64,000 bases of DNA, taken from NCBI GenBank assembly GCA_000165345.1, contig CM000429.1:640001-704000 (forward strand), read 5' to 3'. Under the pieces are notes generated by a model that was given only the letters and a program-made list of their open reading frames with translations, searched no databases and was not told where the DNA came from. Numbering within the stretch: position 1 is the stretch's first letter; each line of letters begins with the position of its first letter. Made by a program: the position numbers and the translations under genes. Shown piece by piece: positions 10,605 to 59,031 of this stretch.

Positions 10605-10775
10605 CAATGGCTGGTATATAATATCCAGCCTGCGAGCATGCTTCAGATTTAAAGGAAAAAGGGAGAAACAGCACAAAATTTGTACTTGTTAGAATCGCAA
10701 ATAAATTTTGTTAAAAAAATTTGATAAAGTAGAAATTGGTGAAAAATCTCATTTTATTTGTTTCAAAAGAAAAAA

Positions 10776-11852
10776 ATGTCAATCTGTCAAGAAAGAGCAA
10801 AGGAATTAGCAGAAAATGCAAGGAAGATCGCAAGCCCAGGAAAGGGTATATTGGCAGCAGATGAATCCACTGGTACAATTAAGAAAAGATTTGATCAAGT
10901 TGGAATTGAGAATACTGAAGCAAACAGAGCAGCTTATAGAGAATTGCTTTTTAAAACTGAAGGTTTGAATCAATACATTTCTGGAGTTATCCTATACGAA
11001 GAAACTCTTTTCCAAAGTACAGCAAGTGGTGAGAAGATGACCGACTTATTAAAAAAGCAAGGAATCTTACCAGGAATCAAGGTTGATATGGGTTTGACTA
11101 CCTTACCACTTACTGACGGTGAAACTTCCACGACTGGTTTGGATGGATTAGGAGCCAGATGCAAGAAGTACTACGATGCTGGAGCTCGTTTTGCAAAATG
11201 GAGAGCAGTTCTCACTATTGACCAGGCTAAGGGAAAGCCAAGCTGCCTTTCAATTTCTGAAACTGCTCATACATTGGCTAGATATGCTGCAATCTGCCAA
11301 GAAAACGGTCTTGTTCCAATTGTAGAGCCAGAAATATTATCTGATGGATCACATGATATCGAGTTTTGTGCCAAGGTTACAGAAAAGGTTTTGGCCGAAG
11401 TTGTTAAAGCTCTTCATCTCCACCGCGTATTATTGGAAGGTTCACTATTGAAGCCAAATATGGTTACCCCAGGTTCTGACTGCCCAAAAAGAGCATCTTC
11501 TCAAGAAGTTGCTTTTTATACCGTTAGAACTTTAAAAAGAACTATTCCATCAGCAATGGCAGGAGTTATGTTCCTCTCAGGTGGTCAATCTGAGGAAGAA
11601 GCATCACTTAACTTATGTGAAATGAACAAGATCAAGGATTGCCCTTTATTCTTGTCCTTCTCATATGGTCGTGCCTTGCAAGCTTCAGTTTTGAAGGCAT
11701 GGAAAGGAGATGCATCCAATGTTCCAGCTGCTCAGAAGGCACTTTTAGAGAGAGCCAAGGCAAACTCAGAGGCTCAATTGGGAGTCTACAAGGGTGGTGT
11801 TGGTGGTTCTGCTGCTTCTGAAGGATTATTCGTCAAGTCTTATGTTTACTAG
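10776..11852 (+). CDS. Fructose-1,6-bisphosphate aldolase, class I
   Basis: [26 protein letters not shown] and the class I active-site region; about 358 aa. Track start 10758 is TTG; the ATG is at 10776 by frame. Confidence 0.95.
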
Positions 11853-11969: not shown

Positions 11970-14432
11970 CTAATATAGGCATAAGTGGCCGCATCCAGAA
12001 GGACAGATTGAATTTGAAAGGAACCACTCCTTTATATGTTTTGGATGTCCTCCATGTCTACAGCAAGGACATCCAACCCAGAGTCCTAGAACTGGTTCAC
12101 TGCAAACCACACAAATATTTTTGCTTGAATTACACTTCAAACATGAATGGAGATCTGTTCTTGGCTGGAAGTTCTTATCTAGTAGAGCTTTTTCTGACTT
12201 TATTTGTCTTTCACAATAAGATTTTGACTCGAAAAAAGAGTCCTTTTCATTTCCTTGTATAATACTTCCACAATAAAAGTTTGATTCTGATATATTTTCC
12301 CTCCCTAGATTTCTTATTTTCTTTATTTGGCTAGACTTAATCAGTTGTGAAGAGAGACAAAAAAGTCCAAGTTTTCTAAGGAGACTAATTAAGCTTAGAG
12401 TCAACTTTAACTGCAACAAAATAGTGGATTTTAAGATTGGTGAATCTGGAGGTGTTATGCAAGGTAATAAGTTATTTACAATTAAAAGACAAATTACAAC
12501 ATTGTTCATGTTGGATTGGAGATTTAGTTCATTCGAAATAGCTTCAATAGTTTCATTTAAAGAGCATTTTTTCTTAATTATATACATATATCTTTGTTCC
12601 TGAAGTATCTTAATGCCAAAAACTTCGAGAAAGAATTCAAAAATACACTCCACCTTTTCTTCTAAAGTCAATTTCTTCAAACTATCTCTATTAAATAAAA
12701 AACTTCTTGGGTCTTCTCCTCTGCCTGAAGAGATATAAACCATCCCATTCAGTTCGGAGATACTTTTGTCCTTATATACAATAATGCGTGGTCCCCATTT
12801 GACTTTCCAATTGTGAACCTTGGTAGAGCCTAAGCTTGAGAAGATTGAACTCCAGCTTGGAGTCAGTCCAAAAACACCAAGTCTGTGAATTATCCTTATC
12901 CAATCAGATTTCCTATTATTGAGTTCATGTATATGGAGCCTCCTTTCCAGCTCACACCTTGGATCTAATATTGATGCAAGGTCTCCAGGAAACTGAACAA
13001 GACCAATGTCAGGGAGAAATCCTGTGACTGAATAAAGAGAATACTTGAATAGCTCATTTCTTTCACTACAAAATTTGAAAATTGAGTCAGATTTATCCAT
13101 GAGTTCCCTTACTTTGGACTTGAAATCACTATTTTGTTTTTTGAGTTCTGTATTTGAATTGGAAGTTTCTCCAGAAACTGGATTATTGTAAATTTCAAAG
13201 TTTTTCTTAACGGTTTTCCTAAAGAACTCGTGTGATATATTGAAAACTACTCTTTGGGAAGCTTCAATAGAATCGTGGAAATTCGGAGTATAAAGACAAG
13301 AAGATGTTTTAATCTTCCTATTTGGTTTTGCTGCATCCTCCCATACAGATAGAATAAGTTTCTTATCAGCTCCACAGCTCATAATAGCATCAGATTCAAG
13401 CCAATCAAAGTCTCTAACTACATCAGTATGTCTAGAAAACCTTCGAATAGGCCGAATGGGATCCAGCAGGTCATAAACGTAGATTGCAGAGTCAATAGCT
13501 GAACAACAGAATGCAATTTGTGAAGGAAATCCTGGTCTCCACCTTGCCTTTCCTACAACAAACTGAGATTTAATGCTTGTTATTGAGGTAATTCCGTCCA
13601 TTTTACGTATATCCCATATTTGAACTCCGTTTCTACAACCAGTAGAAAATACATTATTATCATGTGGGTTCCAACGAATACAACTCAGACCTTTAGAGAG
13701 AGTTTGAGTTCTGTTGCACTGTGAGAACTTTGCTCTAAAGTCTAAGTGGGAAATAGTACCATCGTCAAAAGCTAGAAGAAGCTCATTATTTGCCCATATC
13801 CCATCAGATCCAAGATTCCTTGATTGCATATCTCGAATTGGGGACGAAGTTACGCAAGCTGACCAAATTGGAGTACACTGCTCTTCAGAAGAACTAATAT
13901 TAATCCCGGAACATTCTCTAAGCGCTTCACCATCCACTAATTTAATTTCCCCATTTTGAAAGCCTAATGCAAACAAGTTAGAGGAATCGCCCAGCCATTC
14001 CAAACAGCAACCTGCAACATTATGAGACCTAAATCTCGATGACATTTGCCAATGTCTGCCTTTGAGTCCTACATAAATATTTGCAGAACCGCTCAAAGTC
14101 AAACCTAGAAGAGTGTGAGAACCTCTAGACCACCCAATATCTACCAAATTAGTTCTGGAGATATTGTAAAAGCTTGAAATACGGTCAAAGTTTACAGTAC
14201 TAAGTTGTAAAAGAGATCTCCCTCCAACTGCAACACGATTTAGCATTGGTTCCAAGTTACTCATCCCTGAGTCATTTTCTCCTTCTTCCAAAAACTCTCC
14301 ATCAAGCCTTTGACTTAAGATCTCTGAAGACTTTGCCCAATGGCAGATCGAAAGACTACTTGGAATTGCAGAGAGTTGCTTAATGCAGTGGACTGCATGT
14401 TCGCTATTAGTTCCACCTTGATCATATTCCAT
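11970..14432 (-). CDS. WD40-repeat protein with a C-terminal GATOR2/SEA-type RING (WDR24/MIOS/WDR59-like)
   Basis: Beta-propeller repeats in the N-terminal half. C-terminal CxxC...CVVC...WVGCPCCRHGGHPKHIKEWF...CPSGCGHLCLY matches the MIOS/WDR24 C-terminal RING (C..C.HGGH..H...W....CP.GCGHLC). Confidence 0.6.
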   Translation of the reverse strand: MEYDQGGTNSEHAVHCIKQLSAIPSSLSICHWAKSSEILSQRLDGEFLEEGENDSGMSNLEPMLNRVAVGGRSLLQLSTVNFDRISSFYNISRTNLVDIGWSRGSHTLLGLTLSGSANIYVGLKGRHWQMSSRFRSHNVAGCCLEWLGDSSNLFALGFQNGEIKLVDGEALRECSGINISSSEEQCTPIWSACVTSSPIRDMQSRNLGSDGIWANNELLLAFDDGTISHLDFRAKFSQCNRTQTLSKGLSCIRWNPHDNNVFSTGCRNGVQIWDIRKMDGITSITSIKSQFVVGKARWRPGFPSQIAFCCSAIDSAIYVYDLLDPIRPIRRFSRHTDVVRDFDWLESDAIMSCGADKKLILSVWEDAAKPNRKIKTSSCLYTPNFHDSIEASQRVVFNISHEFFRKTVKKNFEIYNNPVSGETSNSNTELKKQNSDFKSKVRELMDKSDSIFKFCSERNELFKYSLYSVTGFLPDIGLVQFPGDLASILDPRCELERRLHIHELNNRKSDWIRIIHRLGVFGLTPSWSSIFSSLGSTKVHNWKVKWGPRIIVYKDKSISELNGMVYISSGRGEDPRSFLFNRDSLKKLTLEEKVECIFEFFLEVFGIKILQEQRYMYIIKKKCSLNETIEAISNELNLQSNMNNVVICLLIVNNLLPCITPPDSPILKSTILLQLKLTLSLISLLRKLGLFCLSSQLIKSSQIKKIRNLGRENISESNFYCGSIIQGNEKDSFFESKSYCERQIKSEKALLDKNFQPRTDLHSCLKCNSSKNICVVCSEPVLGLWVGCPCCRHGGHPKHIKEWFLSNSICPSGCGHLCLY

Positions 14433-15188
14433 TAATTCACTTTGTTGTCATTTTGCGGGACTATTACTTTTTTCTCATTTATTCCTCACTTTTCCCGTTT
14501 GTCAGCTTTAATATACTTCTGAATTCCCGCCATATTTAATTTATCCTCGTATTTTCGTAAAAAAAAATGCCAAATAAAATTTATGTGGAAATTATTTCAT
14601 AATCTTTCCACGCAGCGAAATCTCAAAGAAACTTTGTTTCCCGATTGATTTTGGTCGGAATTTTCCTTCTCCTTATTAAGGAACATTGTAATATTCAGAA
14701 ATAGTTTCTCTTCGTATTCTTGACTGTTTTAATCAATTTCTCTGCTGTGCATGCCCCCCATTATGCCTTTGGAAGCAACAGAATAGCTTGATATGGAGAA
14801 TTTTTCTCAAGCTTGATACATCCTTCCTAAAATAATACTTCCTTTCTGAACTAGTCCCAAATTTATTAATCTGGTGGATTTATGATTATATTTAACCTAA
14901 ATCTACCGAATATTGTTTTCTTTTATAAGATTTAAACAGCCCTATGGGAACATACCACTACACCTAGTAGTAATTATAACTTTATTTAATTTTGGAATTT
15001 TTGTGTAATTATTTTCTTTAAACAGATTATTTGCATTTATTCATAATTATCACAATTAACCAAAATAATGCCGGCAAAATAATTAAATATTAATATTCCC
15101 ACACACATTGAAATATGTTATATCAATAACTGGATTTCTATTTGAATTGTAAATACTTAATTTAGTGAAATCCTGAAAGCCTAATTTA

Positions 15189-16397
15189 ATGAGCTCAGAA
15201 ACTGCTTCAATTGAAATTGGAAAGTCTGCCATTGTAAGTTAACTTAATTCCAAATTAACATGGTAAATTATTTGAAATTGAAATTTAATTAAACTTTAAA
15301 TATACCATAATAGATTAACTCTGAAGCTATTGGGCATAAAATCAACTCTCTTGAAGATAAGTATTACAGTATAAAAAGGTACCATGAATCTCGTTTAAAA
15401 GTAAGTGCTAATTTATTTTTTCCAAGATATTATAAAATATACATAATAATTAGGACTTAAGCTCAGAAATCAAGGAGCTTTCAAAGCTTATAAACAAGGA
15501 ACAAAATGATATTCAAGAAATAAAATCTATAAAAGAAAAAAAGTTGAGAGAAGTCGAGTTGAAAATATCAAACCAAATTTTGGAATTACGGGAAATTAGA
15601 AATGAATCTGATACTTTAATTGAAAACAAAATTAAGGACCATTTACACAGGATGGAAACTTTAGAATTCAACAAATCATCAGAAATAGATATTCGAAGAG
15701 AAGATCAATTCGAGAAGATTTCAAGTTCATTAAATGACTTAACTCAAAAAGTTGAATATTTAAGGAAGAGAAGGTAAGTTAATTTTCCCAACTGGTTTGT
15801 TAGCATTCAAATCAGAATTACTTATGATATACTTTATTCTTGAACTTAAAATTTGTCCTTCCCAAACTCTTCTTCATCTAGAAAGAATATTCTTACATCA
15901 TTTAAAAAAGAACTTGCAAATGGTAAGTTTACAACTAATAATATGAAGATGGTATTTCGTTGGTATAATGTTTATTTGTAATATATGGATGTAGCAATTC
16001 TAAATCCATTTTCATGTAAATACTATCTATTTCTTGATTAATTATTTGGACAAATTTACTCTAATTATTTTCCTCCTTTAACAATAACAATAGAATCGGA
16101 GAATATATTAAAATCCATTCAAGAAGAATCTAACAGAAGGGAATACTCTGTCCAAAGCATGAAACAGTAAGTTTTAGAGTTTACTAAGATTTTAATGTAA
16201 TAATCAAAATATTGTCTTTATTTGAAAGACTATTAGACGACACAATGAATCACTTTCTGACGGAAATGGCAGCCTCAAGGACTAGTAGATTGGAAATGGA
16301 TAAGCAAATTATTGACCAATTAGAGCTTGCTTGTCAAGATACTGAAAATAAGTTAGCTAGGATGATAAGCTCAAATGAAAATCAAAAAGACAACTAA
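15189..16397 (+). CDS. Coiled-coil protein, multi-exon. Exons approx 15189..15233, 15314..15400, 15454..15773, 15882..15922, (16095..16167), 16230..16397.
   Basis: ATG at 15189, then consecutive GTAAGT donors and polypyrimidine-AG acceptors. Track ORF 15544..15777 sits inside exon 3 and ends at a TAA within the donor AG|GTAAGT; track ORF 16212..16397 sits inside the last exon. Reading frame is continuous through exon 5 if AGAAGGGAATAC is read correctly. A shorter isoform that skips exon 5 (acceptor ...ctattag|ACGAC) is also in frame. No homology recognised. Confidence 0.5.
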
Positions 16398-16412
16398 ATT
16401 ATTTCTCCTCTC

Positions 16413-17165
16413 TTACTGTGCAGATTCAATGATTTTCGCAAATGTTGGCTTCAATGAAGCTCCTCCAACAAGGAAACCATCAATATCGGCGCATTTGATT
16501 AATTCATTACAATTATCAGGAGTGACCGATCCTCCATAAATTATTCTTAAATTGGAAGATACCTGGGGATTATACATCCTTGTAACATATTCTCTAATAA
16601 ATGCATGAGCCTCTTGAGCTTGCCCAGGTGTTGCTACTACTCCTGTTCCGATAGCCCAAATTGGCTCGTAAGCTATTACTAAGTTAGACAAATCACTCAC
16701 ATCCTTTAAAGCTTCCGTTAACTGCTTCTGTATGACATCATTGGTCTTTCCTGTTTCTCTCTCACTTAATGACTCTCCAATACAAAGAACAATCTTCAGG
16801 CCATTCTCCAAACCCTTCTTTACCTTATTATTTACGATTTGATCAGTTTCTGAATAGTATTGTCTTCTTTCAGAATGGCCTACTAAAGAACAATCAACAT
16901 CCATATCTTTAAGCATTTCACAAGAAACTTCTCCCGTAAATGCTCCGTTTCCAGTACAAGAAATGTTCTGTGATCCAATCTTGAATACTCCTGGATGATC
17001 ATTACCGAAAAACTCTTTGACCAATGAAATATGTAGTGAAGTTGGGAATACGTAAACCTCTGAATTACTTGATTCCACTTGTTTGAAAGAATCAATCAGA
17101 GTCTTTAGAGATTCTTTTGTGCCATTGCACTTGAAGTTACCACCCACAAAGTACTTTCTAGACAT
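16413..17165 (-). CDS. TPI: Triosephosphate isomerase
   Basis: AYEPIWAIGTG, GGNFK and IIYGGSV motifs; 250 aa. Confidence 0.95.
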   Translation of the reverse strand: MSRKYFVGGNFKCNGTKESLKTLIDSFKQVESSNSEVYVFPTSLHISLVKEFFGNDHPGVFKIGSQNISCTGNGAFTGEVSCEMLKDMDVDCSLVGHSERRQYYSETDQIVNNKVKKGLENGLKIVLCIGESLSERETGKTNDVIQKQLTEALKDVSDLSNLVIAYEPIWAIGTGVVATPGQAQEAHAFIREYVTRMYNPQVSSNLRIIYGGSVTPDNCNELIKCADIDGFLVGGASLKPTFAKIIESAQ

Positions 17166-19535: not shown

Positions 19536-20936
19536 CTATAAATTATCGGAACTATGTTCTCTGTATACTTGTTCTGCCAATTGAGATAGAGTTACACATT
19601 TAAATTTAGTGGATAATTCTGGAAGCATTAGCTTTAAAACTTCAATGTTAGCTGATCTGAAACTATTGGAAGGTATATGTAAGCAAACAATTGAACCAGG
19701 AGAAGCATTACTGGTACAAAACTGGGCAAGAAATTGGGGAAATCCCTGAAATGAAACATCATTTGGGTATACATCACACATTACAACGTTATATCCCCTA
19801 GATACTACCAGTTCGTATTGCTGTTTTGTAAGTCTCCCAAATGGTGGCCTAAACCACTTATATGTTCTCAATTGTTCATTTCGAGTTCCATCATTATAAA
19901 AAACTTCTGGAAGATCACTTAAAGTTTGTTGGGTTTTTAAAATTGTTGAAGCAGAAGTTGATGTAATCATAGAGGATGAGGATGAGGATGAGGATGAGGA
20001 TGAGGAAGAAGAAGAGGATGGTGATAATGTCATTTCTGAAGTTGAAGTTTGGCTTCCTGAAGAGCTTTTTTTACCATTCATGTACATTGGAGGAATAATA
20101 TATGAATTACTGGAAATATGTTCTGGACAATATTTACTAATTAAATGCTCACACTCTAACAAATGTTTGGTAAATACTGAAATTGGGAGCTTATGAGCAG
20201 GAATGTCCTTTGCTAAGTGGTTTCCTAATTCATGTCCTTCAGATATACATCTTTTTAAAAAATGGTCAGCATTTTTGATATATTTTGCATTCCTTTCTGT
20301 TACAAAAAAAGTGCATTTAATATTATAATCTGCAAGTAAAGTAAGAATATTCTCATTAGTTTCTGGATCCAAACCGGGAACATCATCTATTGTGAGAGCT
20401 ACAATCGGCTGTTCAGTTTCAAACCACCAAATAGCATCCATTAAGTAAGTACCAAAACTATTCATCATGGATCTTGAGATAAAAGACGACCTACCAAATC
20501 GTAAAAAAGTTCGAATTGCCCATCTAGTACCAGATTTATTCAAGGCCTCCCAAGCTGTTTTGCTGAACATATTTCCCGTCTTGCTCTTACTGGATGAAAT
20601 CGTGTTCATTATATATAATTGTGAATTTCTTCTATTTATCACTTCTTGAGGACCTAAAAAAATATTAATAAAATAAGGAATACATAAATAGATTAAAAGG
20701 GGAATTCAATTACTCTTCAACCAGAAGTTCCAGAATAACCCCAATTTTTTTTCTCTTGAAAACTTACCCAATTCATCATCTCCTAACCCACTAACCAAAC
20801 TATTGATTGCAGCATTTTCAAAGGCATCCTTCCCAACTATATCAGAATCGTCTGATAAATCAGATTGATAGGCATTTCCATCGGTCATCAAAAACCTTAA
20901 GATGCTTAACTTCTTCTTCTTTCTCCGTTTCCCCAT
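19536..20936 (-). CDS. Polysaccharide deacetylase (NodB/CE4 family), 2 exons approx 20768..20936 and 19536..20653
   Basis: NodB motifs ALTIDDVPG (TFDDGP-like) and GHELGNHL (HxxxxH), plus a poly-Ser run. Upstream mini-exon with ATG at 20934..20936 (MGKRRKKKK...GDDELG), donor TTGG|GTAAGT, 114-nt intron, acceptor tttttttag|GTCC. It joins the main ORF in frame. Track ORF 20706..20954 corresponds to exon 1. Confidence 0.75.
19963..20016 (-). repeat. Coding trinucleotide repeat (GAGGAT)n on the plus strand, equal to poly-Ser (S15+) in the deacetylase
   Basis: gaggatgaggatgaggatgaggatgaggatgaggaagaagaagaggatgg. Confidence 0.85.
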
Positions 20937-34997: not shown

Positions 34998-35259
34998 TTC
35001 AATTCTAACTTAATCTTTTCAAGCTTTAAGAAATTGAAGGAAAAAAATCTTGGAGAAAAAATTTGATGATGCTTACCACTTAAGTATATATGGATGGTAC
35101 AATTGGACTTATTCTCTTAATTAATTAATTTCAAGAAACTTTAATTTCAGCCTCTTTCCATATCATTTAAATAAAAAATAACAATAATTCCAATGCTTGC
35201 TATTAATTTTTACCACGCTCAAAAATATTTGGGCATATTAAAAAAAAATATAGAAAAAG

Positions 35260-35330
35260 TGCACTAACGGGGAATCGAACCCCGGTCGAAACGATGGCAA
35301 CGTTTCATCATACCACTAGACCATTAGTGC
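35260..35330 (-). tRNA. tRNA-Gly (anticodon GCC)
   Basis: Reverse complement GCACTAATGGTCTAGTGGTATGATGAAACGTTGCCATCGTTTCGACCGGGGTTCGATTCCCCGTTAGTGC(A). It has a 7-bp acceptor stem, anticodon stem AAACG/CGTTT, loop TTGCCAT and T-arm CGGGG-TTCGATT-CCCCG. It is followed on its strand by CTTTTT, a Pol III terminator. Ends may be off by 1 nt. Confidence 0.9.
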
Positions 35331-40647: not shown

Positions 40648-42900
40648 ATGGACCTCCATCCTCATATTAGAGCATTGGATGTAGTAGAGACATTTTGGGA
40701 AACATTCAACGAGCTTGGAAATGTCATAATTTTAAATCCAATAATTGTTAAGTCTTCTTTCCCTATAAGTGTTGATATGGTTAGAGATGCAACACAAAAA
40801 ATGATACAAAGGCATCAATCATTGAGAGTACGAATAATTTCAAAGATGACAAATAGTGAAGGAAAGAAGGCTTTAAAGAGATATTTTGTAGACCTTTGTG
40901 ACAGTGCAGAGGTAGTAATTAGAGAAGAATTTCTATCAACGCAAGAAAATCAAAATTTAGAATTTGAAAATGAACCAGTTTGGGAAAGTATGCTGGTCAA
41001 AGAGCAGAATGAATTTTTCGATAATGAAAATTCTCCATTATGGAGAATTAGAATGATGAGACTCGGAAAGTGCGGAAATACATACAGAACATGTTTTATT
41101 GGGAGCTTTCATCATGCAATAATGGACGGTCTAAGTCGTCAGTATTTCTGGACAGAATTATTAGGTTTATGCGCACTTTCTAATGAATTTCCAGATATAG
41201 CTATTCCAAAAAATAGGCCCACAGCCCTTCCAAAGAGTGTTTGCAAGTACTTTCCTTCTTCATTGAAGGTAAGGCTACTTAAACCATTTTACTCTTGGAG
41301 GGCAACAGCAGCACATGGAGTTTGTTTATATAGAAAGTTGGTGGCACCATTTGAAAATCCGTGTAGTCTTGAAATTTCACGAGACTTATATGCCGATTTT
41401 AAAAAGTCTCCTAGGACAAGCATTTTACCAATAAAAATTTCAAAGGAACTATTAAAGAAATTAATGACAAAATGTAAGGAAAGAAAGATTCAGTTAAATG
41501 GCGCAATAGAGGCAGTTTCAGCTTTAGGACTAATGGGGTTAATATACGAATTGAGAGAAAATAGAATGAATAGAAACTCTGGAGATATTTCCGAGTTGAA
41601 GGATGATGACAAATCACCGGAAAATCAACGCAATAGAGAACTATCGACTACATTAAATTTAAATTGCATGAATAATTGTGCTCCTTTCAATATTAGAGGA
41701 AGTGATTGCTTCATTCAAGGAGCTGAGGGCAATACAATAATTCCAATTAGAACAATGGTTGCAATTAACTGCAGAAGATGGGTAACAAAAGATAACCCTT
41801 CAGTACGCCCAGAAACAAGCAAAGATGTTGAAGCAGATTTAATGAACGTGTTAGAAGTAATGCAGAATAATAATAACAGTGGTACAACAACCACAACTAC
41901 TTTGACAGACAAAAATGATGAGATTGCTATTAAAAATGACTCAACTGAATGCTCAAATTTAAATTCCGGGGATGAAAATATATCTTCATTAGAAAATACT
42001 GAATTTAGTGAAGCTTATGCAAATAGATCAAGAAGCTATAAAAGCCATTCTAGGGAATTCTTTAATAATCTGAATAAAATAAATATATCATTAACAAAGC
42101 TGAATTCACAAAATGGAGAGAAGATTGGCCCATCGTGGCTTAAAAAAGCAGTTTCTAAAGTAATGAGCCCCAAAAATAAAAAATCTAAACAGATTAAAAC
42201 AGTTGGTTTAGGTTCCTATGCAGTGCTTATGGGATTGGACATGAAAGTTGAGAAGGACTGCATGTCAGATATTGATAAGATGTGGGAATTAGCAAACAAT
42301 ACAAACAAGAAAATACATTCAATAGTGGATTCAAAAGACCCATCAGCTGTAACATTTGAGTGGCATGTAATAAGTGGTAAGTTGCTTCATTAATTTAATG
42401 TATTTATTATGAATGAATATTAATTTTTATTAGGTTTTATACACGATTTAGCAAATTCTCCCACAAGGTCTGATAAAAATAGATTATTAATGCAGCTTGG
42501 TGACCCAACAATCAGACCTTCATCGTTTCTAGTTAGTAATGGAGGGTTATGGGATTCAAGCCCATTACAAGAACTAATTAAAAGGATTAATTCAATCACA
42601 ACTGAGCAGGAAGTAATGGTGGAGGTAGAGTCATCATACAGCTGTGTTGCACAGCATAACGTAAGTTTAATCAAAAGAAATTTGGTAAAAAGATAACTAG
42701 AAATTCACTTTATTTGATTTTTCTATTCGAAATATTAAAATTTATAGGCTGGTTTAAATATGTTTGCACATAATATTGTAACTGTTAATGGAGAACTATG
42801 TTGGAGTTTACAGTATCATAGTAATATTACAAGCAAAGAGGTAGCTCAAGCGTACTCAAACCATATTCAGAAGTATATAAATTTACTTGCAGAATCATAG
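40648..42900 (+). CDS. HHxxxDG acyltransferase, wax ester synthase/diacylglycerol acyltransferase (WS/DGAT, CAT/condensation-domain superfamily)-like, 3 exons approx 40648..42376, 42434..42660, 42748..42900
   Basis: SFHHAIMDG at about residue 150, the catalytic HHxxxDG position in bacterial and plant WS/DGAT. The C-terminal region has a SNGG..P motif (compare SNVPGP). Introns: G|GTAAGT...ttattag (57 nt) and AAC|GTAAGT...tttatag (87 nt). Track ORF 42490..42696 falls in exon 2 in the same frame. Confidence 0.55.
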
Positions 42901-42984
42901 AAATTAAATGAAAGTTAATGAGAATTAAACTGAGAAGAAGCCAAGAAATTAGTAAGTTGCAAGTTAAAATCAAAAAATTGGATT

Positions 42985-43001
42985 TGGCGCCGGCGCCAGC
43001 T
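42985..43001. promoter_or_regulatory. Tandem GGCGCC sites (TTTGGCGCCGGCGCCAGC) about 80 bp upstream of SAS10/UTP3
   Basis: Doubled GC-rich palindrome core in an AT-rich spacer. Confidence 0.45.
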
Positions 43002-43079
43002 CATTTGGAGGTCAAATTAAATGGCAATTTTTGACATAAGAGTACGAGAGGAATTATTTTTTTTTAAATAAAAAAAAAT

Positions 43080-45158
43080 ATGGCAGTGCAAGTAAGAAAT
43101 AAAAAGAAGGACAAGACCTTGTGGATTTCTGCGGAGGAAGAAGTAGATGATAGTACTAGCAATGATGAGTTGGAGGTAATGAATATCGATGATGACTATG
43201 ATTCTTCAGATGATAGTGAAGGAGAAGACCAATATGAAGAAGAAGGTGAAGAGGATGATAGTGATGAGGATGAAGATGAATCAAATACTAAGGACTGGGG
43301 GAACAAAAAACAGGATTTCTATGACGGAGGTTCTTCAAGTACAGATAGTGAGGGAGAGAACTGGTCTGATGTAGAAATGCAAGATGAGGAGGCACGAGGA
43401 ATTCAGGCAAGTAGAATGATGAGGTTGAGTAAGGAGGATTTTGGGATGGATGATATTATCGATCAGAGTAAATTGGAGGAGGATGATGAATCGGCAGAGA
43501 ATGAGGCAGCCTCATTTGGATTATCTATTAATGATGCAGAAACACTATTGGAAAGTTTAAGTAATTTATCGAATACGAAGCAGGAAAAAGAGTCGGATGT
43601 TTTAGCAGCATTGGGTAATGACGGATTGGATGGAATAGAGGGTTTGGATTCAGAACTAGCTCCAATATTAACAAGTATAAAGGAAAAAGTTACAGAAGTA
43701 AAAGAGAGAATGCAGGTATTATTAAATTTGGTAAAAACAAAGGAAGGTTCAGGCTTGGTGACAGAAAAAGGGATGGAGTACTTAGACTCGAAGAATACTT
43801 TGCTCTTGATGTATATTGGTTATTTATGTTATTATATGATGTTAAAGACTTCTCCTGATATTAACATTAAGGAGCATCCAATTTTGTTGAGACTGGTTAC
43901 TTTACGAACAATGATGGAAAAATTGAAGCCAATAGATGTCAAACTTCAACCGCAAATAGATAGAATTTTGGAGTTAGCAGAGAAATCATCTCAAGTGGAT
44001 AACTTCTTATCATCAGCTCCAAGGCCAGACAGATTCGTATTTGAAGATGAAGATAATGATAATAGTGACATTGAAGAAAATGAGATTTCTAAACATGATC
44101 TCGGGGATGAGTTTGATGAGTCTACAAATATCGATTCAGATGTAGAATTAACTGAAGAAGATTCGGATGGTGGAAAAGGCGTTTATAAAGCTCCAAAGAA
44201 TTTACCAGTTGAGTTCAACGATAAAAAGTTGAGTAAGACTGAGAAGATGATGAAGGAGTTAGAAAGAGAAAGACAGAGGTTATTAAGAACTGATATTATT
44301 CGCCAAATGAGATCTAGTATTCATGAAGGCCCTGAGGAAGTTGGAAGGGAAGAAGCTGAACAACTACCTCAGTTGGAGCGATTACAACGACAAATAAAAG
44401 AACGAATTAATTTTGAGGAGGATAATATGATGAGGTTACCAAAGACTAAGAAGGACAAAAGAGAAGAAAAGCTTTATAAGAGGTTAATGAGCCAAGTTGA
44501 GGGAGGTGTTAATACTTTGGACGATTTAGCTCAATTTGCAGAAAGAGCTACAGATATGGTAACTGATTCGAAAAAGAACTCACTTTCAAAGTATTTAACC
44601 AATGCTTCAAGGCTCAATAGGGAGATTACAAAAAGTAATTTGGCTCAACAAAATTCTGATAAGAGCATTACAGAAAAATTGTTAAAGAGGAAAAAAGCAC
44701 AAGCCGAATTGGCTCAAAAGAGCAAATATAAACCTGAGTATGATTCTAAAAGTGCCGATTACGATGATTCTGTGGATGAGTCTTATGCTGAAGCAGAAAA
44801 GGAGCTATTTAAGAATAATTCATATTTACAAGAAGTTCTCAAGTTGAATGAAGAGAAAAAAATGCAAAAACAAAAGAGGAAGCAAGAAATTGATAGTCGA
44901 AATATGCCAAATATTGATGATTTAGTAGATTCAGGATCCAGAAGAGCATCTACTAAAGAAATGATTAAGAATAAAGGTTTGACTAGAAAGAGAAAGAAGA
45001 TAGAAGGTAATGCAAGAGTACATAACAGACTCAAGTATAAGAAGGCATTGAAGAGACTTAAGGGAACTCAGAGAAGCATGAGAGATTATGAGAGCAGTTA
45101 CTCTGGAGAATCTACTGGATTAAAGGATAATGTTAAGAGATCAACAAATCTTAGTTAA
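43080..45158 (+). CDS. SAS10/UTP3 (U3 snoRNP, SSU processome) homolog
   Basis: Acidic N-terminus; a Sas10/Utp3/C1D domain (KNTLLLMYIGYLCYYMML...EHPILLRLVTLRTMMEKLKPIDVKLQPQIDRIL); and a Sas10 C-terminal domain (GLTRKRKKIEGNARVHNRLKYKKA). Confidence 0.75.
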   Translation: MAVQVRNKKKDKTLWISAEEEVDDSTSNDELEVMNIDDDYDSSDDSEGEDQYEEEGEEDDSDEDEDESNTKDWGNKKQDFYDGGSSSTDSEGENWSDVEMQDEEARGIQASRMMRLSKEDFGMDDIIDQSKLEEDDESAENEAASFGLSINDAETLLESLSNLSNTKQEKESDVLAALGNDGLDGIEGLDSELAPILTSIKEKVTEVKERMQVLLNLVKTKEGSGLVTEKGMEYLDSKNTLLLMYIGYLCYYMMLKTSPDINIKEHPILLRLVTLRTMMEKLKPIDVKLQPQIDRILELAEKSSQVDNFLSSAPRPDRFVFEDEDNDNSDIEENEISKHDLGDEFDESTNIDSDVELTEEDSDGGKGVYKAPKNLPVEFNDKKLSKTEKMMKELERERQRLLRTDIIRQMRSSIHEGPEEVGREEAEQLPQLERLQRQIKERINFEEDNMMRLPKTKKDKREEKLYKRLMSQVEGGVNTLDDLAQFAERATDMVTDSKKNSLSKYLTNASRLNREITKSNLAQQNSDKSITEKLLKRKKAQAELAQKSKYKPEYDSKSADYDDSVDESYAEAEKELFKNNSYLQEVLKLNEEKKMQKQKRKQEIDSRNMPNIDDLVDSGSRRASTKEMIKNKGLTRKRKKIEGNARVHNRLKYKKALKRLKGTQRSMRDYESSYSGESTGLKDNVKRSTNLS

Positions 45159-45544
45159 TTCAGAAAGAAAGGTGGGACTTTCAAGTATTAAAATGGCCGA
45201 ACTAACAGAACATTTTAAAGGTTTCATGTGAATATACACACATCTGCAACTCAAATTACTATCATTGAAATGAGTAATATTATTAAACCGCGTACTATTT
45301 TCGACTATTTCTTTAATAACAAATTTTGGAATTTCAATCATCCAAGATAAATACAAATTTCCGAAGAGTAAGATTTTCAAGCGAAGAATAGGAAAAAAAA
45401 ATCAACATAGGAAAAGAATAATAAGTAAATTCTAACCTAATTCAGTTTTTCATGAGGAAATGGAATAAATATCTTCAGAAATTGATTTTCAATCTCAGTA
45501 TCAATATTACCCTCATTTTATGATGCTTTTATTCATACTCAATC

Positions 45545-45554
45545 TTGGCGCCAA
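45545..45554. promoter_or_regulatory. TTGGCGCCAA palindrome upstream of UMP-CMP kinase
   Basis: Same motif class, about 410 bp upstream of the ATG. Confidence 0.35.
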
Positions 45555-45965
45555 CAGTATATTAAACTAAATATTTTATTTTACAATATACTATATACGT
45601 ATAAATGGAGATTAATAAAATAATTTACTATGGGGGATCTTGAAAAAATTAAATAACATTTACATGTAAATTAACTAAATAATTCTATAACTGGGTAAAA
45701 TTATTAAATTCAGGAATTTTCAATACTATTTATTTGATTGCACTATATTTTGGGAGTAACAAGGTAAATAGTTGCAAATATCCATTGTGAAGAGTTTGGT
45801 TAAAGCTAAAGTAAATCAGATTTTCATAATACAATTTATATATAAATATATAAATATATAGAATTTTTTCTATTGTTGGCTTCATTATTGTTTTTTTGAA
45901 TAAAGGCCAAGAGTCTAACATTTATTGGTTTCAGATCATATTATTAATTTTTTTTTGGAATAAGA

Positions 45966-46565
45966 ATGAGCCAAAATAAACCATTTGTACTTTTTTGTTT
46001 GGGTCCTCCTGGTAGTGGAAAGGGAACTCAATGTGCAAAGATTGTGGATGAGTTTTCATTTATCCATTTGAGCGCAGGCGATTGTTTAAGAGAAGCAATG
46101 TCTAGAAAGGATGAAACCAGCGAGTTAATTGACAGTTATATCAGAGAGGGATTAATTGTTCCTGTTGAGATTACTGTTGGTTTGTTAAAGAAGAAGATGC
46201 AAGAGTATGGTTGGAATGATAAATATTTTTTGATTGATGGTTTTCCTCGTAACCAAAATAATTTAGATGGTTGGTATAAGATTATTCCAGATACTGATGT
46301 TAATGTTATTGGTTGTTTATTTCTAAATTGCGATGATAATATTGTTGTTGAGCGTCTTTTACACAGGGGGGAGACAAGTGGACGTGTTGATGACAATAAG
46401 GAGACAATTGTAAAGAGACTCAGAGTTTATCATGAGGAAACAACCCCAATTATTGAGTATTTTAAAAATTCCAATAAGTGTTTTACTGTAGATACTACTG
46501 GTTCAATAGAATCTGTTTGGGAAGATTTGAAGAAATTATTCAGGGAAAAGATTATTTCGAGTTGA
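45966..46565 (+). CDS. UMP-CMP kinase / adenylate kinase family
   Basis: P-loop GPPGSGKGTQC, NMP-binding FLIDGFPRN, and VDDN...RL; 199 aa. Confidence 0.85.
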   Translation: MSQNKPFVLFCLGPPGSGKGTQCAKIVDEFSFIHLSAGDCLREAMSRKDETSELIDSYIREGLIVPVEITVGLLKKKMQEYGWNDKYFLIDGFPRNQNNLDGWYKIIPDTDVNVIGCLFLNCDDNIVVERLLHRGETSGRVDDNKETIVKRLRVYHEETTPIIEYFKNSNKCFTVDTTGSIESVWEDLKKLFREKIISS

Positions 46566-47134
46566 AATGGACGATTTTAACTATATCAAGAATAATATAT
46601 TTAAGTACAATTATTAATATTAAAATTTTAATGAACCATTTTTTTTTTTTGGAATATCAAAAATTTAATATTAATATATAATAGTTGTTAAAATATTCAA
46701 ATTCTTTTGAGATAGTTTAAATTTGAGATTGTTTATTAATTACAAGCATTTGAAAGTAAATAAATAAGGTATGCTGAGTTGACTATAAGCCTTAACTTCA
46801 AATTTTTGGCATACCAATTTCTTCATTATTAATACCAAATCAAAGAGAGAAAGAAGTAAAATATATGAAGGGTTATAACTTTAGAAATCTTGTAAATTAC
46901 TAATTAGGGTGTTTATTATACTCTTTATATTCTCGTTTAATTTGTTTTTTTTCTTTTTTTTTTTTTTTTTTAAATAAAAGGAGTTCATCATTTTTCTATA
47001 CATTTACATTAAATAATTTCCTAATCCTTTTTGTCTGGAAAAATATGTAAATGTATGTTTGGTGTTTCACTTCTTATTGTTTGTCTATCTTGTTTATGCC
47101 AATAGTCTATAAACAAGCTTTTCATTGTAATCTA

Positions 47135-48118
47135 CTAATTCTTTGTGATTTGATAAATAATATTAACTATTTCTTTACAAAGATAGTTATTAAGAGAGCA
47201 TATTTCTTTAAAAAATAGATTTTGGATATATTGACAGTCAAATTCATTGAATATAATATAAGTTTCAAGCTTTGCCCATAATATAAAACAAGGAATAATT
47301 GAAATGAGTGATTGCCCATTTTTAGTAGTTGGAAGAGGAGTATATTGCAGTAAATCGCAAATAGCTAGAGATGAATCAAATATTCGGATAATTTCTCCAT
47401 TTCTATATAAATGAAGAAATTCTTTTGATAAAATTGAATGATACTTTATTCTTGAGATATAAATATATAAAAGTTTACTAGGAGTATAATTAATACCAAA
47501 ACTTGTATTCACATGAGTAAGAATTTCTAATTGTCTTTTTAATATCTTATCAGGATTTAACCACTTTGCAGCATTACAAAATTGTCTAATACTTGGTACA
47601 ATCATATCAGATACTGTTTCAATAATATTTGAAGCCAATAAAAAACATGCAGCAGCAGTGGCAGCAAGTTCAGAGTTATTATATTGTACATGAGTTTCTA
47701 TTAGAAAAGTGTCAAAAATTCTGCATGAAAGATGAAATGTACATGATTGAAATTTTAGACGATTACTGTGTAAGCTTAGCCAATATATTATTTTAAATCT
47801 TTCATTACTTCCAATATTATGTTTCTGATCAAAATAAGGAATACTTTCAATGCTTTTGATATATGGAGATTTTATCGACATAACAAAATCATTAAAACTA
47901 TCCAAGTTTAGACCATTTATATCTTTTAATGACTGAAAATCAAAAATTTCTTCTGATATTATTCTCAAGTAATTCTCTTCATAGAGTGTTTTATAAAATC
48001 TTGAAATATTTGATGTGAGGTTTCTTCCAATTTTACTAACATTTTTTTTTCGGAAATTACTCAAGGAATTACTAGTTTCTTCATTTTCATCTTTTAATTT
48101 AGAGTAAATTTTTATCAT
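47135..48118 (-). CDS. Cyclin-like protein (cyclin box fold)
   Basis: FHLSCRIFDTFL...LAATAAACFLLASNIIE resembles cyclin-box helices. Confidence 0.55.
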   Translation of the reverse strand: MIKIYSKLKDENEETSNSLSNFRKKNVSKIGRNLTSNISRFYKTLYEENYLRIISEEIFDFQSLKDINGLNLDSFNDFVMSIKSPYIKSIESIPYFDQKHNIGSNERFKIIYWLSLHSNRLKFQSCTFHLSCRIFDTFLIETHVQYNNSELAATAAACFLLASNIIETVSDMIVPSIRQFCNAAKWLNPDKILKRQLEILTHVNTSFGINYTPSKLLYIYISRIKYHSILSKEFLHLYRNGEIIRIFDSSLAICDLLQYTPLPTTKNGQSLISIIPCFILWAKLETYIIFNEFDCQYIQNLFFKEICSLNNYLCKEIVNIIYQITKN

Positions 48119-49610
48119 ATTTCAAATTCGCCACTTCCCTGATTTTCATTACTTTTTTTTTTCTTGTATTCCTGGGTTATCCAATCTATTTAGATCTTAA
48201 TTCAAACATTTCTTTTTCCTTTTTCGGATATATATTAAATATTATTTCGACTAATTATTAATAAATTTTACCTGTAATAATTGTCAATATTTACACGTAG
48301 TGCATTACTTGTCATTACAAATTGTCCACACCGAAGATTTTCAAGTAAAGGTTTTTTTCCATAAATTTTATAATTCATTTTTTTTCATTGATCAAGTGTA
48401 AATAATTAATATTCCATTCCTATTTTTATTAAATTTACATCTGATTTGAATAAAGAAAATGATTAATTAATTTTTTTTTTAAATTCTTAATTACTTACGT
48501 GTATAATATTAATATAATACTTGTCTTTTTTTTTATATTGTATTTCCATTTCTATTTGAATTTGGTTTTAAAAAAATTTGGTCATATATTAACATACTCT
48601 TAATACTATAATATTTTTCTTCAAATAGAATAATTAATATTTATTCTCTCCTGAAGTTTTTTTTTCTGATTTTACTCCACGTAATTTTATCCACATTAAA
48701 ATTTTTATTGCATGTAAACACCGGTACTGGGGAAAAAATAATTAGAATATGCATGCAATTCTGTGTGTAAACAATAAAATAAAAAAAATTAGTTAGAATT
48801 ATTTAAAAAAAATAAAAGTTTAGTGAAATTTCAGCCTATGATGTATTGATAATAAGTGATATAAAGATGACTTAATTAATGATTCACTGTTTAAAGAGAA
48901 TCAGCTTATAATAATAAAAAAAAAAGAGGTGAAGGTAATACATGGAGAAAAGTTGAGAAGAGTATAGTATTGCCAATATTAAAATTCTAAATATAAGAAT
49001 AATAAACAATAGGAAAGAGAAGTTTATAAAAGAAAGAATGTAAGTAATTAAGTTAATATGATAAGTTATTTCGGAATATATTTATTTTTAATAAGCATTA
49101 TGAAGAGTTAAAAATATTAAAAAAAAAAAAATCAACAAAGTTCACATGAAGAGGATAGAAAAGTTTCTAATAAAAAGGGGATTTAAAGTGGGAGTATTAT
49201 TTAGAGAATATAATGCGAAGATAATAATAAAATGCCGAATAAATATAAAAGAAAGTTTCAAAATAATTACTATTTAAGAAGTGGCACAAACATGGAATAA
49301 GAATAGGAATATCTAAGCACACACTCAGAAGAAAAGATAATATCTATAAAAAAGTTTGTGTGTTTCAATGAATGGCTATAAACATCTTTATTATAAGAAT
49401 GATGCTTTTTAAAAAGCCGATATTTGCAAAACTAGTTTAATTAAGCAAACAAGTTTGGGCGGCAAGGCAAAAATGCGTCTCTAAAAAGCAAATTTAAATG
49501 TTGAAAACAAATAAAATTAGTAAAAAAAACAATAAGAGTACTAAATAAATTAGAGATTTGGATTTGGGAAAGAAGTACAAGTGTGAGCAGATTTCACTGC
49601 GATCTCTAAG

Positions 49611-53969: not shown

Positions 53970-54029
53970 TAATTAATTTTAATTGTTATTTTAACTATAA
54001 ATATAAATATAAATATTTCTAAGTTTCAT

Positions 54030-54120
54030 ATTTTTTCTTTCTTTCTTTCCTTCCTTCCTTCCTTCTTTCTCTCTTCCCCACTCACTGACTCTTTCTTTCT
54101 TTGTTTTTTTTTCTCCCTAT
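54030..54120. repeat. Polypyrimidine (TTCC/TTTC)n tract in the convergent 3' intergenic region
   Basis: ttctttctttccttccttccttccttctttctctcttcccc. Confidence 0.8.
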
Positions 54121-54171
54121 ATTGCTATTTATTCATAATCCCCTATTCATTAGTCCATGTTTATTACAAAT

Positions 54172-59031
<4,860 letters not shown>

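What the first reader, a model, noticed from the sequence alone, without database searches (positions are those of the whole stretch)
11970..14432. WD40 protein with a GATOR2/SEA-complex-type C-terminal RING
The C-terminal C..C...C..C.HGGH..H...W....CP.GCGHLC.Y arrangement is characteristic of MIOS/WDR24/WDR59 (yeast Sea2-4). Those proteins act upstream of TORC1. A GATOR2-like subunit here raises the question of what it regulates if the parasite lacks TORC1 and Rag GTPases; it may be a vacuole or coat-related role inherited from the SEA ancestor.
Basis: partly seen in the sequence, partly recalled or inferred. Interest (0 to 1): 0.55.

Follow-up and report, generated by a model that had tools for sequence, protein, structure and literature searches.

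The report
Cryptosporidium WDR24/Sea2 (GATOR2 subunit) ortholog
This gene encodes the Cryptosporidium version of WDR24, a subunit of the nutrient-sensing GATOR2 complex; it is kept under strong purifying selection even though TOR kinase, the pathway's usual target, has not been found in this parasite, so its job here is an open but modest question.

Summary
Window 11970-14432 (minus strand) is one uninterrupted 820-aa ORF in a Cryptosporidium genome (99% identical to the C. hominis protein). It has an N-terminal seven-blade WD40 propeller, an alpha-solenoid and a C-terminal zinc-binding RING. The Cys/His pattern is invariant across eight Cryptosporidium species.

The closest relatives outside the genus are from the chromerid Vitrella and from dinoflagellates, so inheritance looks vertical. 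dN/dS against C. ubiquitum is 0.085 overall and 0.01 in the RING, so the gene is functional.

Published surveys found no TOR-complex subunits in C. parvum. I could not test whether MIOS, WDR59, Seh1, GATOR1 or Rag GTPases exist in this genome. A TORC1-independent role at a lysosome-like membrane is the best inference; such a role is documented for fly and human WDR24. NCBI already names the C. felis ortholog "WDR24-like". New member of a known kind; moderate interest.

The parts
11970..14432 (-). Complete intron-less ORF, 820 aa plus stop: the Cryptosporidium WDR24/Sea2 ortholog
   Evidence: ORF listing. It is 99% identical over 100% of its length to the 820-aa C. hominis protein P0001. Full-length collinear profile-profile alignment with the WDR24 family, E 2.8e-68. 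dN/dS 0.085 against C. ubiquitum.
14256..14432 (-). N-terminal 59 residues. Mostly low-confidence, with one conserved strand (residues 26-32) that may close the propeller.
   Evidence: AF2 model: pLDDT 33-66, strand E26-32. The segment HCIKQLSAIPS.LS.CHW is conserved within the genus. The propeller-closing role is an inference.
13323..14255 (-). Seven-blade WD40 beta-propeller (residues 60-370)
12906..13322 (-). Residues 371-509: two predicted strands (377-384 and 392-400), possibly the partial blade that WDR24-family proteins donate to Seh1/Sec13. These are followed by a variable, low-complexity linker and then a conserved block at residues 450-478.
   Evidence: AF2 strands at low confidence, pLDDT 41-51. 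Y381, P383, S400, H401 and S450...L478 are invariant in the genus. The region aligns to the family profile. The blade-insert function is inferred from the GATOR2 and SEAC structures and was not tested.
12297..12905 (-). Alpha-solenoid (residues 510-712)
   Evidence: AF2 helices 511-712, pLDDT 83-92 for residues 580-690. Profile positions 640-814 align to yeast Rtc1/Sea2 residues 1173-1335 at E 8.7e-11. hhalign covers this region.
12144..12296 (-). Start of the C-terminal zinc-binding domain (residues 713-763), with conserved cysteines C721 and C740 upstream of the RING
   Evidence: C721 and C740 are invariant in the genus and present in at least 90% of the sequences of the 69-sequence alignment A3 (nearly invariant columns). 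A role as extra zinc ligands is inferred.
11973..12143 (-). SEA/GATOR2-type RING (residues 764-820) with 13 conserved Cys/His positions, W803 and the CPSGCGH motif
   Evidence: Pfam zf-RING_16 (PF17120) scores 25.9-27.1 bits, just under the gathering cut-off of 27.4. PDB RING-profile hits: WDR24 7e-12, WDR59 7.5e-11. Invariant in the genus. dN/dS 0.010, the most constrained part of the gene.

Best explanation
The gene encodes the Cryptosporidium ortholog of WDR24 (yeast Sea2/Rtc1). WDR24 is one of the three propeller / alpha-solenoid / RING subunits of the GATOR2 (SEACAT) protocoatomer-like complex. The gene was inherited vertically from the myzozoan ancestor and is kept under strong purifying selection. 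All of this is shown.

The following is inferred. TOR-complex subunits have not been detected in Cryptosporidium, so the protein most likely no longer works as an activator of TORC1. It more likely keeps the TORC1-independent side of WDR24 function. In that role it would be a membrane-associated scaffold, built through its zinc-bound C-terminal domain and a Sec13-type partner, with or without ubiquitin-ligase activity. It would sit on a lysosome- or vacuole-like or other endomembrane compartment and support acidification, trafficking or autophagy-related turnover.
For: Identity:
- Human WDR24 is the best PDB match by single sequence (E 5.9e-23, both propeller and RING) and by genus profile (1.6e-26).
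- In the same profile search WDR59 scores 1e-12 (RING only), Rtc1/Sea2 8.7e-11 and MIOS 1.6e-4.
- hhalign of the genus profile against 61 diverse relatives gives probability 100 and E 2.8e-68, with profile columns 60-823 of 825 aligned to 18-702 of 710.
- That reference set is itself the WDR24 family: its profile hits human WDR24 at 1.5e-245 over the full length.
- NCBI names the C. felis ortholog 'GATOR complex protein WDR24-like'.

Vertical descent:
- The nearest relative outside the genus is from Vitrella brassicaformis (261 bits). Dinoflagellate sequences are among the hits.
- A neighbour-joining tree places Cryptosporidium next to Vitrella.
- Gene order is conserved in C. ubiquitum and C. 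serpentis.

Functional constraint: dN/dS is 0.085 overall, 0.010 in the RING and 0.057 in the propeller.

No TOR: no TOR-complex subunit was detected in C. parvum (PMC3236823). [quoted passage not shown] Possible partner: Sec13 is present in Cryptosporidium (PMC6062611; PMC2951903 Table 2).
Against: - No localisation, interaction or phenotype data exist for this protein. No paper in the library links Cryptosporidium or apicomplexans with WDR24.
- I could not search the Cryptosporidium genome for MIOS, WDR59, Seh1, NPRL2/3, DEPDC5, Rag GTPases or TOR. The 'TOR-less' context therefore rests mainly on a 2011 survey, and a canonical or semi-canonical module is not excluded.
- Seh1, the WDR24 partner in human GATOR2, was not detected in C. 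hominis in a 2010 HMM screen, so the partner is uncertain.
- The orthology call rests on best-hit ranking and profile alignment. I did not build a maximum-likelihood tree with WDR59 and MIOS outgroups.
- The RING alone does not separate WDR24 from WDR59 (48.3 against 45.0 bits).
- The AF2 model is only moderate: mean pLDDT 72, pTM 0.52, and the blade-insert region is below 50.
Confidence: 0.6

Rival explanations
1. Residual nutrient-sensing module. Cryptosporidium keeps more of the SEA/GATOR-Rag machinery than is recognised: other GATOR2 subunits, GATOR1 and/or Rag GTPases. WDR24 would then still antagonise a GATOR1-like GAP, and the output would go to an effector other than TOR.
For: - GATOR1 subunits have been reported in 'several apicomplexans' (PMC12290439).
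- C. parvum and C. muris are among the species abbreviations of the paper that defined the Npr2/Npr3 longin-DENN families (PMC3521125). Which family their sequences belong to is not readable.
- The very strong constraint on the RING (dN/dS 0.010) fits a conserved partner or substrate interface.
Against: - RAG and GATOR1 are reported lost in P. falciparum (PMC5745459) and not identified in T. gondii or Plasmodium.
- Nothing related to SEA, Rag or TOR lies in the 64-kb window.
- I have no direct evidence for any partner in Cryptosporidium.
Confidence: 0.17
2. Canonical function. A divergent TOR kinase and TORC1 do exist in Cryptosporidium but were missed by older surveys, and this protein is an ordinary GATOR2 subunit upstream of TORC1.
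For: - The explicit absence call for C. parvum dates from 2011.
- T. gondii has a TOR-like kinase gene of unusual size, which shows that divergent TOR homologs can persist in the phylum.
Against: [quoted passage not shown]
- Later reviews treat obligate intracellular apicomplexans as lacking TOR.
- No later paper in the library reports a Cryptosporidium TOR.
Confidence: 0.1
3. Not a SEA/GATOR protein at all, but a generic WD40-RING E3 ligase (COP1- or RFWD3-like) or a HOPS/CORVET Vps11/18/8/41-type tether subunit.
For: - COP1/RFWD2 WD40 domains and the synoviolin RING give weak hits.
- HOPS/CORVET subunits share the propeller / solenoid / RING layout (PMC4678705).
Against: - COP1 matches only the propeller, at about 1e-6.
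- No Vps11, Vps18, Vps8 or Vps41 chain matches the RING even at E<=10, nor the whole protein at E<=1.
- There is no Pfam clathrin/Vps repeat hit.
- The full-length collinear alignment to WDR24 has E 2.8e-68.
Confidence: 0.02
4. An evolutionary relic: a gene left over after loss of the TOR pathway, decaying and without function.
For: - The middle of the protein (residues 400-510) is variable and carries indels between species.
- Identity to the C. serpentis ortholog is only 38-44%, depending on the measure.
Against: - The reading frame is intact in eight species.
- dN/dS is 0.085 at dS 0.94, and 0.010 in the RING.
- Every zinc ligand is invariant and synteny is kept.
Confidence: 0.02

Closest known systems
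Human WDR24 (GATOR2 subunit; PDB 7UHY chain C)
   Different: Overall identity is only about 17% in the structural alignment. The Cryptosporidium protein has a lineage-specific variable insert at roughly residues 400-510. The human protein acts with MIOS, WDR59, SEH1L and SEC13 upstream of GATOR1, Rag and mTORC1. TOR-complex subunits were not detected in C. parvum, and the other partners could not be checked.
Yeast Sea2 / Rtc1 (SEACAT subunit; PDB 8ADL chain A)
   Same: The WDR24 ortholog in fungi. It matches over the solenoid and RING (profile positions 640-814 against residues 1173-1335, E 8.7e-11). It is the next Foldseek match after the WDR24 chains (3.7e-20).
   Different: Sea2 is much longer (1341 aa), with large disordered inserts. 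It is vacuole-associated and regulates TORC1 through SEACIT. Its RING is more divergent from the Cryptosporidium RING (1.1e-5) than the human one is.
WDR59 / Sea3 and MIOS / Sea4 (paralogous GATOR2/SEACAT subunits)
   Same: They share the SEA-type C-terminal RING: WDR59 7.5e-11, Sea4 1.1e-4, MIOS 2.5e-4. They also share the propeller-plus-helical architecture.
   Different: Only the RING of WDR59 matches the genus profile (50.1 bits, against 95.8 for WDR24). No RWD domain, the WDR59/Sea3 hallmark, is detected. MIOS and Sea4 match weakly and rank below WDR24 and Sea2 in the fold search.
Drosophila Wdr24, in its TORC1-independent lysosomal role
   Same: It provides a documented function for this family that does not need TORC1: lysosome acidification and autophagic flux (PMC4864241). 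That is the kind of role a WDR24 ortholog could keep in an organism without TOR.
   Different: In flies the protein still also activates TORC1 and works with Mio and Seh1. Nothing comparable has been tested in Cryptosporidium.
Vitrella brassicaformis CEL93371.1 (uncharacterised protein)
   Same: The closest relative outside Cryptosporidium: 261 bits, 30% identity over 385 aa of the propeller, and shared C-terminal motifs. It groups as sister in the NJ tree.
   Different: It comes from a free-living photosynthetic chromerid. It is 1124 aa long with long inserts, and its annotated C-terminus breaks off inside the RING, probably a gene-model error.

Membership tests
WDR24 / Sea2 (GATOR2-SEACAT subunit) | N-terminal seven-blade WD40 beta-propeller | tested here: met
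WDR24 / Sea2 (GATOR2-SEACAT subunit) | Alpha-solenoid between the propeller and the C-terminal domain | tested here: met
   Helices at 511-712, pLDDT 83-92 for residues 580-690. The region aligns to Rtc1/Sea2 residues 1173-1335 and to the family profile.
WDR24 / Sea2 (GATOR2-SEACAT subunit) | C-terminal SEA-type RING/zinc-finger domain with the C..C / C..C / C..C.HGGH..H / W / CP.GC.H.C ligand pattern at the extreme C-terminus | tested here: met
   The pattern is present and invariant in the genus. It is also found at or near the C-terminus of most of the 150 best relatives. PDB RING hits: WDR24 7e-12, WDR59 7.5e-11. Pfam PF17120 scores 25.9-27.1 bits, just below its cut-off of 27.4.
WDR24 / Sea2 (GATOR2-SEACAT subunit) | Closer to WDR24/Sea2 than to the paralogs WDR59/Sea3 and MIOS/Sea4 (orthology) | tested here: met
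   Forward direction only. Profile bit scores are 95.8 (WDR24), 50.1 (WDR59) and 22.9 (MIOS). Foldseek ranks WDR24, then Sea2, then MIOS/Sea4. The full-length hhalign to a WDR24-family profile has E 2.8e-68. No RWD domain is found. I could not run a reverse best-hit search against a Cryptosporidium proteome or an ML tree with paralog outgroups.
WDR24 / Sea2 (GATOR2-SEACAT subunit) | Partial beta-blade after the propeller that completes the open propeller of Seh1 (or Sec13) | tested here: inconclusive
   Two strands are predicted at 377-384 and 392-400 with genus-invariant residues (Y381, P383, S400, H401), but pLDDT is only 41-51. No complex prediction was possible. The feature itself is taken from my own knowledge of the 7UHY and 8ADL structures.
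WDR24 / Sea2 (GATOR2-SEACAT subunit) | Assembles with MIOS/Sea4, WDR59/Sea3, Seh1 and Sec13 | not testable with these tools
   No tool allowed a search of the Cryptosporidium proteome. From the literature, Sec13 is present in Cryptosporidium and Seh1 was not detected in C. hominis in 2010.
WDR24 / Sea2 (GATOR2-SEACAT subunit) | Acts upstream of GATOR1, Rag GTPases and TORC1 | not testable with these tools
   The literature reports no TOR-complex subunits in C. parvum. RAG and GATOR1 are reported lost in P. falciparum and not identified in T. gondii. If that also holds for Cryptosporidium, this functional criterion cannot be met even though the structural criteria are.
HOPS/CORVET RING subunits (Vps11, Vps18, Vps8, Vps41) | RING-H2 and clathrin-heavy-chain-type solenoid recognisably related to the Vps class-C proteins | tested here: not met
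COP1 / RFWD-type WD40 E3 ligases | N-terminal RING, coiled coil and C-terminal WD40 substrate receptor | tested here: not met
   The domain order is the reverse here, with the propeller at the N-terminus and the RING at the extreme C-terminus. COP1 matches only through the generic WD40 fold, at E about 1e-6.

The most novel reading that the evidence does not exclude
WDR24 is the only surviving SEA/GATOR component in a lineage that has lost TOR, the Rag GTPases, GATOR1 and the other GATOR2 subunits. It would then work on its own, or with Sec13 as a homo-oligomeric mini-coat or E3 ligase, on a parasite-specific membrane compartment. That would expose an ancestral function of the SEA protocoatomer that does not depend on TOR.
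Probability: 0.2. Interest if true: 0.65.

Novelty: new member of a known kind. Interest (0 to 1): 0.4.

Why it matters
GATOR2 is studied almost entirely as an amino-acid-sensing hub that switches on TORC1. What it does apart from TORC1 is poorly understood; a lysosome-acidification role has been reported in flies and human cells.

Apicomplexans are described as having lost the TORC1 nutrient-sensing axis. [quoted passage not shown] A clear WDR24 ortholog under strong constraint in Cryptosporidium qualifies that picture.

It also offers a natural background for asking what a GATOR2 subunit does when TOR is absent, and Cryptosporidium can now be manipulated genetically. If partners such as MIOS, WDR59, GATOR1 or Rag also turn out to be present, the result would point to a TOR-independent nutrient-sensing module in an important diarrhoeal pathogen.

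If the protein simply tethers or scaffolds a vacuolar membrane, the finding is a useful annotation and little more.

Tried and rejected
1. Word-indexed homolog searches with the whole protein, the genus alignment and a RING-only alignment. They returned only the eight Cryptosporidium orthologs and one unnamed 91-aa fragment.

2. First AlphaFold2 run on the nine-sequence, genus-only alignment. Mean pLDDT was 44.6, so I discarded it. The second run on 69 sequences was usable.

3. The AlphaFold-database fold search (afdb50) would have given organism names and possibly Cryptosporidium paralogs. The library was not available.

4. Looking for apicomplexan orthologs among the 150 best exhaustive-search hits. 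Among those that carried a name were Vitrella, three dinoflagellates, animals (sponge, acanthocephalan, nematode), a fungus (Neoconidiobolus), an ichthyosporean, amoebozoans, a rhizarian and Mantamonas. None was Toxoplasma, Plasmodium or Eimeria. This is not proof of absence: only 30 of the 150 could be looked up, about a third of those carry no name, and more divergent orthologs would score below the list cut-off.

5. Literature route to Rag, GATOR1, Seh1 and TOR status in Cryptosporidium.
   - Table 1 of Tatebe & Shiozaki lists C. parvum, but its symbols are not held as text.
   - The supplements of the two most relevant surveys are not held.
   - The original SEA-complex paper, which has a comparative-genomics figure, is not held.

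6. I guessed the gene identifier as cgd1_3030. This comes from my own memory that aldolase is cgd1_3020 and TIM is cgd1_3040, and it is unverified. No paper contains that identifier.

7. HOPS/CORVET, COP1-type and pseudogene readings were considered and rejected; see the rival explanations.

8. The PDB chains named 'Nucleoporin SEH1' and 'SEC13 homolog' (entries 9dx0-9dx2) match the RING. I take them to be engineered fusions carrying a WDR24/WDR59 C-terminus, because the match lies at residues 510-630 of chains of 570-633 residues, which from my own knowledge is far longer than natural SEH1L or SEC13. I did not treat them as evidence of similarity to Seh1 or Sec13.
Full report
**What is there.** Window 11970-14432 on the minus strand is a single uninterrupted ORF of 820 codons from ATG to stop. 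The window is AT-rich (24-36% G+C) and intron-poor. The protein is 99% identical over its full length to an 820-aa Cryptosporidium hominis protein. Orthologs were found in C. ubiquitum, C. canis, C. ryanae, C. bovis, C. felis, C. serpentis and one unnamed assembly. So the window is Cryptosporidium, either C. parvum/hominis or something very close.

The last 57 residues read C764..C767......C774..C777..........C788.CC791.H793GGH796..H799...W803......C810PSGC814GH816LC818LY820. Every one of these Cys/His positions, W803 and the PSGCGH motif is invariant in all eight orthologs. Their identity to the window protein falls to 38% by BLASTP or 44% in the MAFFT alignment.

**What it is.** Four independent lines of evidence agree.

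- Single sequence against all PDB chains. The best hit is human WDR24, the GATOR2 subunit (7uhy_C, E 5.9e-23). It has two separate matched stretches: the propeller (residues 221-379 against 182-343) and the RING (764-820 against 733-789, 49% identical). WDR59 follows at 4.9e-13 through the RING only, yeast Rtc1/Sea2 at 4e-5 and MIOS at 0.05.
- Genus profile against PDB. WDR24 scores 1.6e-26 (95.8 bits), WDR59 1e-12 (50.1 bits, RING only), Rtc1/Sea2 8.7e-11 (solenoid plus RING), MIOS 1.6e-4 and Sea4 1e-2.
- Exhaustive profile search of 1.84 billion representatives. It gave 1,909 hits at E<=1e-3. From the best 150 I aligned 61 full-length proteins that carry the C-terminal RING (alignment A2). 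The A2 profile hits human WDR24 at 1.5e-245 over its whole length, against 5e-70 for WDR59, so A2 is the WDR24 family. The Cryptosporidium profile aligns to A2 with probability 100 and E 2.8e-68. The alignment is collinear, from profile column 60 to 823 of 825 against 18 to 702 of 710.

A RING-only profile of the last 61 residues matches WDR24 (7e-12) and WDR59 (7.5e-11). Much weaker matches are synoviolin (9e-6), Sea2 (1.1e-5), Sea4 (1.1e-4) and MIOS (2.5e-4). No Vps11, Vps18, Vps8 or Vps41 chain appears even at E<=10, so the RING is of the SEA/GATOR2 class and not the HOPS/CORVET class.

The RING alone cannot tell WDR24 from WDR59. The propeller, the solenoid and the lack of an RWD domain do. 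Pfam's model for this RING (PF17120) scores 25.9-27.1 bits against a cut-off of 27.4. That probably explains why most Cryptosporidium orthologs are named only 'WD40 repeat protein'. NCBI does name the C. felis ortholog 'GATOR complex protein WDR24-like'.

On the second test, van Dam et al. detected no TOR-complex subunit in C. parvum, P. falciparum or T. parva (PMC3236823). Tatebe & Shiozaki report that P. falciparum has lost RAG, GATOR1 and TORC1 (PMC5745459). [quoted passage not shown] So a complete canonical pathway is not documented. The Rag and GATOR1 status of Cryptosporidium itself could be neither read nor tested.

**Origin and constraint.** The nearest relative outside the genus is from the free-living chromerid Vitrella brassicaformis (261 bits; 30% identity over 385 residues of the propeller). 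Dinoflagellate sequences (Noctiluca, Polykrikos, Amoebophrya) are also among the hits. A neighbour-joining tree on 617 trimmed columns puts the Cryptosporidium clade as sister to Vitrella, next to a group that includes Polykrikos. This tree has no bootstrap and is only indicative. The pattern is what vertical inheritance within Myzozoa predicts.

The gene order ZnT transporter - TIM - small gene - WDR24 - aldolase - KDEL receptor - L27e is conserved in C. ubiquitum and in the distant C. serpentis.

Nei-Gojobori dN/dS against C. ubiquitum is 0.085 at dS 0.94. By region it is 0.010 in the RING, 0.057 in the propeller and 0.105 in the solenoid. The gene is therefore functional and not a decaying remnant, and the RING is its most constrained part.

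**How it most likely works.** Shown: the protein has all the structural hallmarks of WDR24/Sea2 and is maintained by selection.

Inferred from the solved GATOR2 and SEAC structures (my own knowledge of 7UHY and 8ADL): in those complexes the zinc-bound C-terminal domains make the junctions between subunits. A partial blade after the propeller plugs into Seh1 or Sec13. The Cryptosporidium protein keeps the ligand set and has conserved strands at the right place (377-400), although those are predicted with low confidence.

Sec13 is present in Cryptosporidium (PMC6062611; PMC2951903 Table 2). Seh1 was not detected in C. hominis, T. gondii, P. berghei or T. parva in that 2010 screen.

TOR has not been found in this genus. 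[quoted passage not shown] The most likely function is therefore a membrane-associated scaffold, possibly with E3 activity, on an endolysosomal or vacuole-like compartment.

My probabilities:
- about 0.9 or more for the identity;
- about 0.5-0.6 for the TORC1-independent membrane role;
- about 0.17 for a residual GATOR/Rag-type module feeding a non-TOR effector;
- about 0.1 for an overlooked canonical TOR pathway.

**What could not be done.** None of the tools allowed a search of the Cryptosporidium proteome or genome for MIOS, WDR59, Seh1, NPRL2/3, DEPDC5, Rag GTPases or TOR. The word-indexed protein search was too insensitive, the AlphaFold-database fold library was unavailable and the relevant supplements are not held. 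Nothing related lies in the 64-kb window. Its other ORFs are XAP5, a protein kinase, DnaJ, 14-3-3, KDEL receptor, aldolase, TIM, a ZnT transporter, a polysaccharide deacetylase, UTP20, a gamma-tubulin complex protein, Sas10, adenylate kinase, a cyclin, a Suf/HAT-repeat protein and others.

Among the 30 best hits I was able to look up, those with names included no Toxoplasma, Plasmodium or Eimeria protein. That fits the published statement that GATOR was not identified there, but it does not prove absence.

**Verdict.** This is a new member of a known family, and one species already carries the name in NCBI. No paper in the library links Cryptosporidium or apicomplexans with WDR24. The interesting part is the context: a strongly constrained GATOR2 subunit in a parasite reported to lack TOR. 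That is a mild surprise and a tractable question rather than a new kind of system. Interest 0.4.

Noticed in passing
window 40648-42393 (+): A 581-aa ORF matches the Pfam Condensation domain (PF00668, 36.5 bits against a cut-off of 30.6, residues 31-175). This is an NRPS-type C-domain-like fold, unusual as a stand-alone protein in Cryptosporidium. It has no sequence match to any PDB chain at E<=0.01.
   Followed up: partly
window 14433-16412 (+), especially 15454-15774 and 16188-16394: The 2-kb gap between the WDR24 gene and TIM has no long ORF. It does contain stop-free, coiled-coil-like segments in different frames. The orthologous loci in C. ubiquitum and C. serpentis carry a called gene of 157-240 aa with no Pfam hit at this position. 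It is probably a small multi-exon gene.
   Followed up: partly
window 10758-11852 (+) and 16413-17165 (-): Two glycolytic genes, class-I aldolase and triosephosphate isomerase, flank the WDR24 gene. The order ZnT - TIM - small gene - WDR24 - aldolase - KDEL receptor - L27e is conserved in C. ubiquitum and C. serpentis.
   Followed up: partly
window 11973-12143 (-), and orthologs P0005 and P0008: Pfam zf-RING_16 (PF17120) scores 25.4-27.1 bits on the Cryptosporidium RINGs, always just under the gathering threshold of 27.4. Annotation pipelines that apply that threshold would therefore miss the domain, which probably explains the generic 'WD40 repeat protein' names.
   Followed up: yes
protein P0009 (Vitrella brassicaformis CEL93371.1), C-terminus: The annotated Vitrella ortholog breaks off inside the RING: it reads ...CAVCGKAVTGLWLSCPRTLIGGHPSHILPLVSS... 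and lacks the CP.GCGH ending. The likely cause is a mis-predicted last intron or exon in the public gene model.
   Followed up: no
window 19536-20642 (-): A 368-aa ORF carries a polysaccharide deacetylase domain (PF01522, E 3.7e-16).
   Followed up: no
window 42000-56000: GC skew is +0.14 to +0.33 between 42 and 54 kb and flips to -0.41 at 54-56 kb, with matching AT skew. The switch coincides with the change of coding strand between the long ORFs at 49611-53969 (+) and 54172-59031 (-).
   Followed up: no
window 35259-35330 (-): A single tRNA-Gly(GCC) gene, the only tRNA in the window.
   Followed up: no
PDB entries 9dx0, 9dx1, 9dx2: Chains deposited as 'Nucleoporin SEH1' and 'SEC13 homolog' (570-633 residues) match the WDR24/WDR59-type RING at their C-terminal ends. 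They look like engineered fusion constructs, so their molecule names can mislead automated annotation.
   Followed up: no
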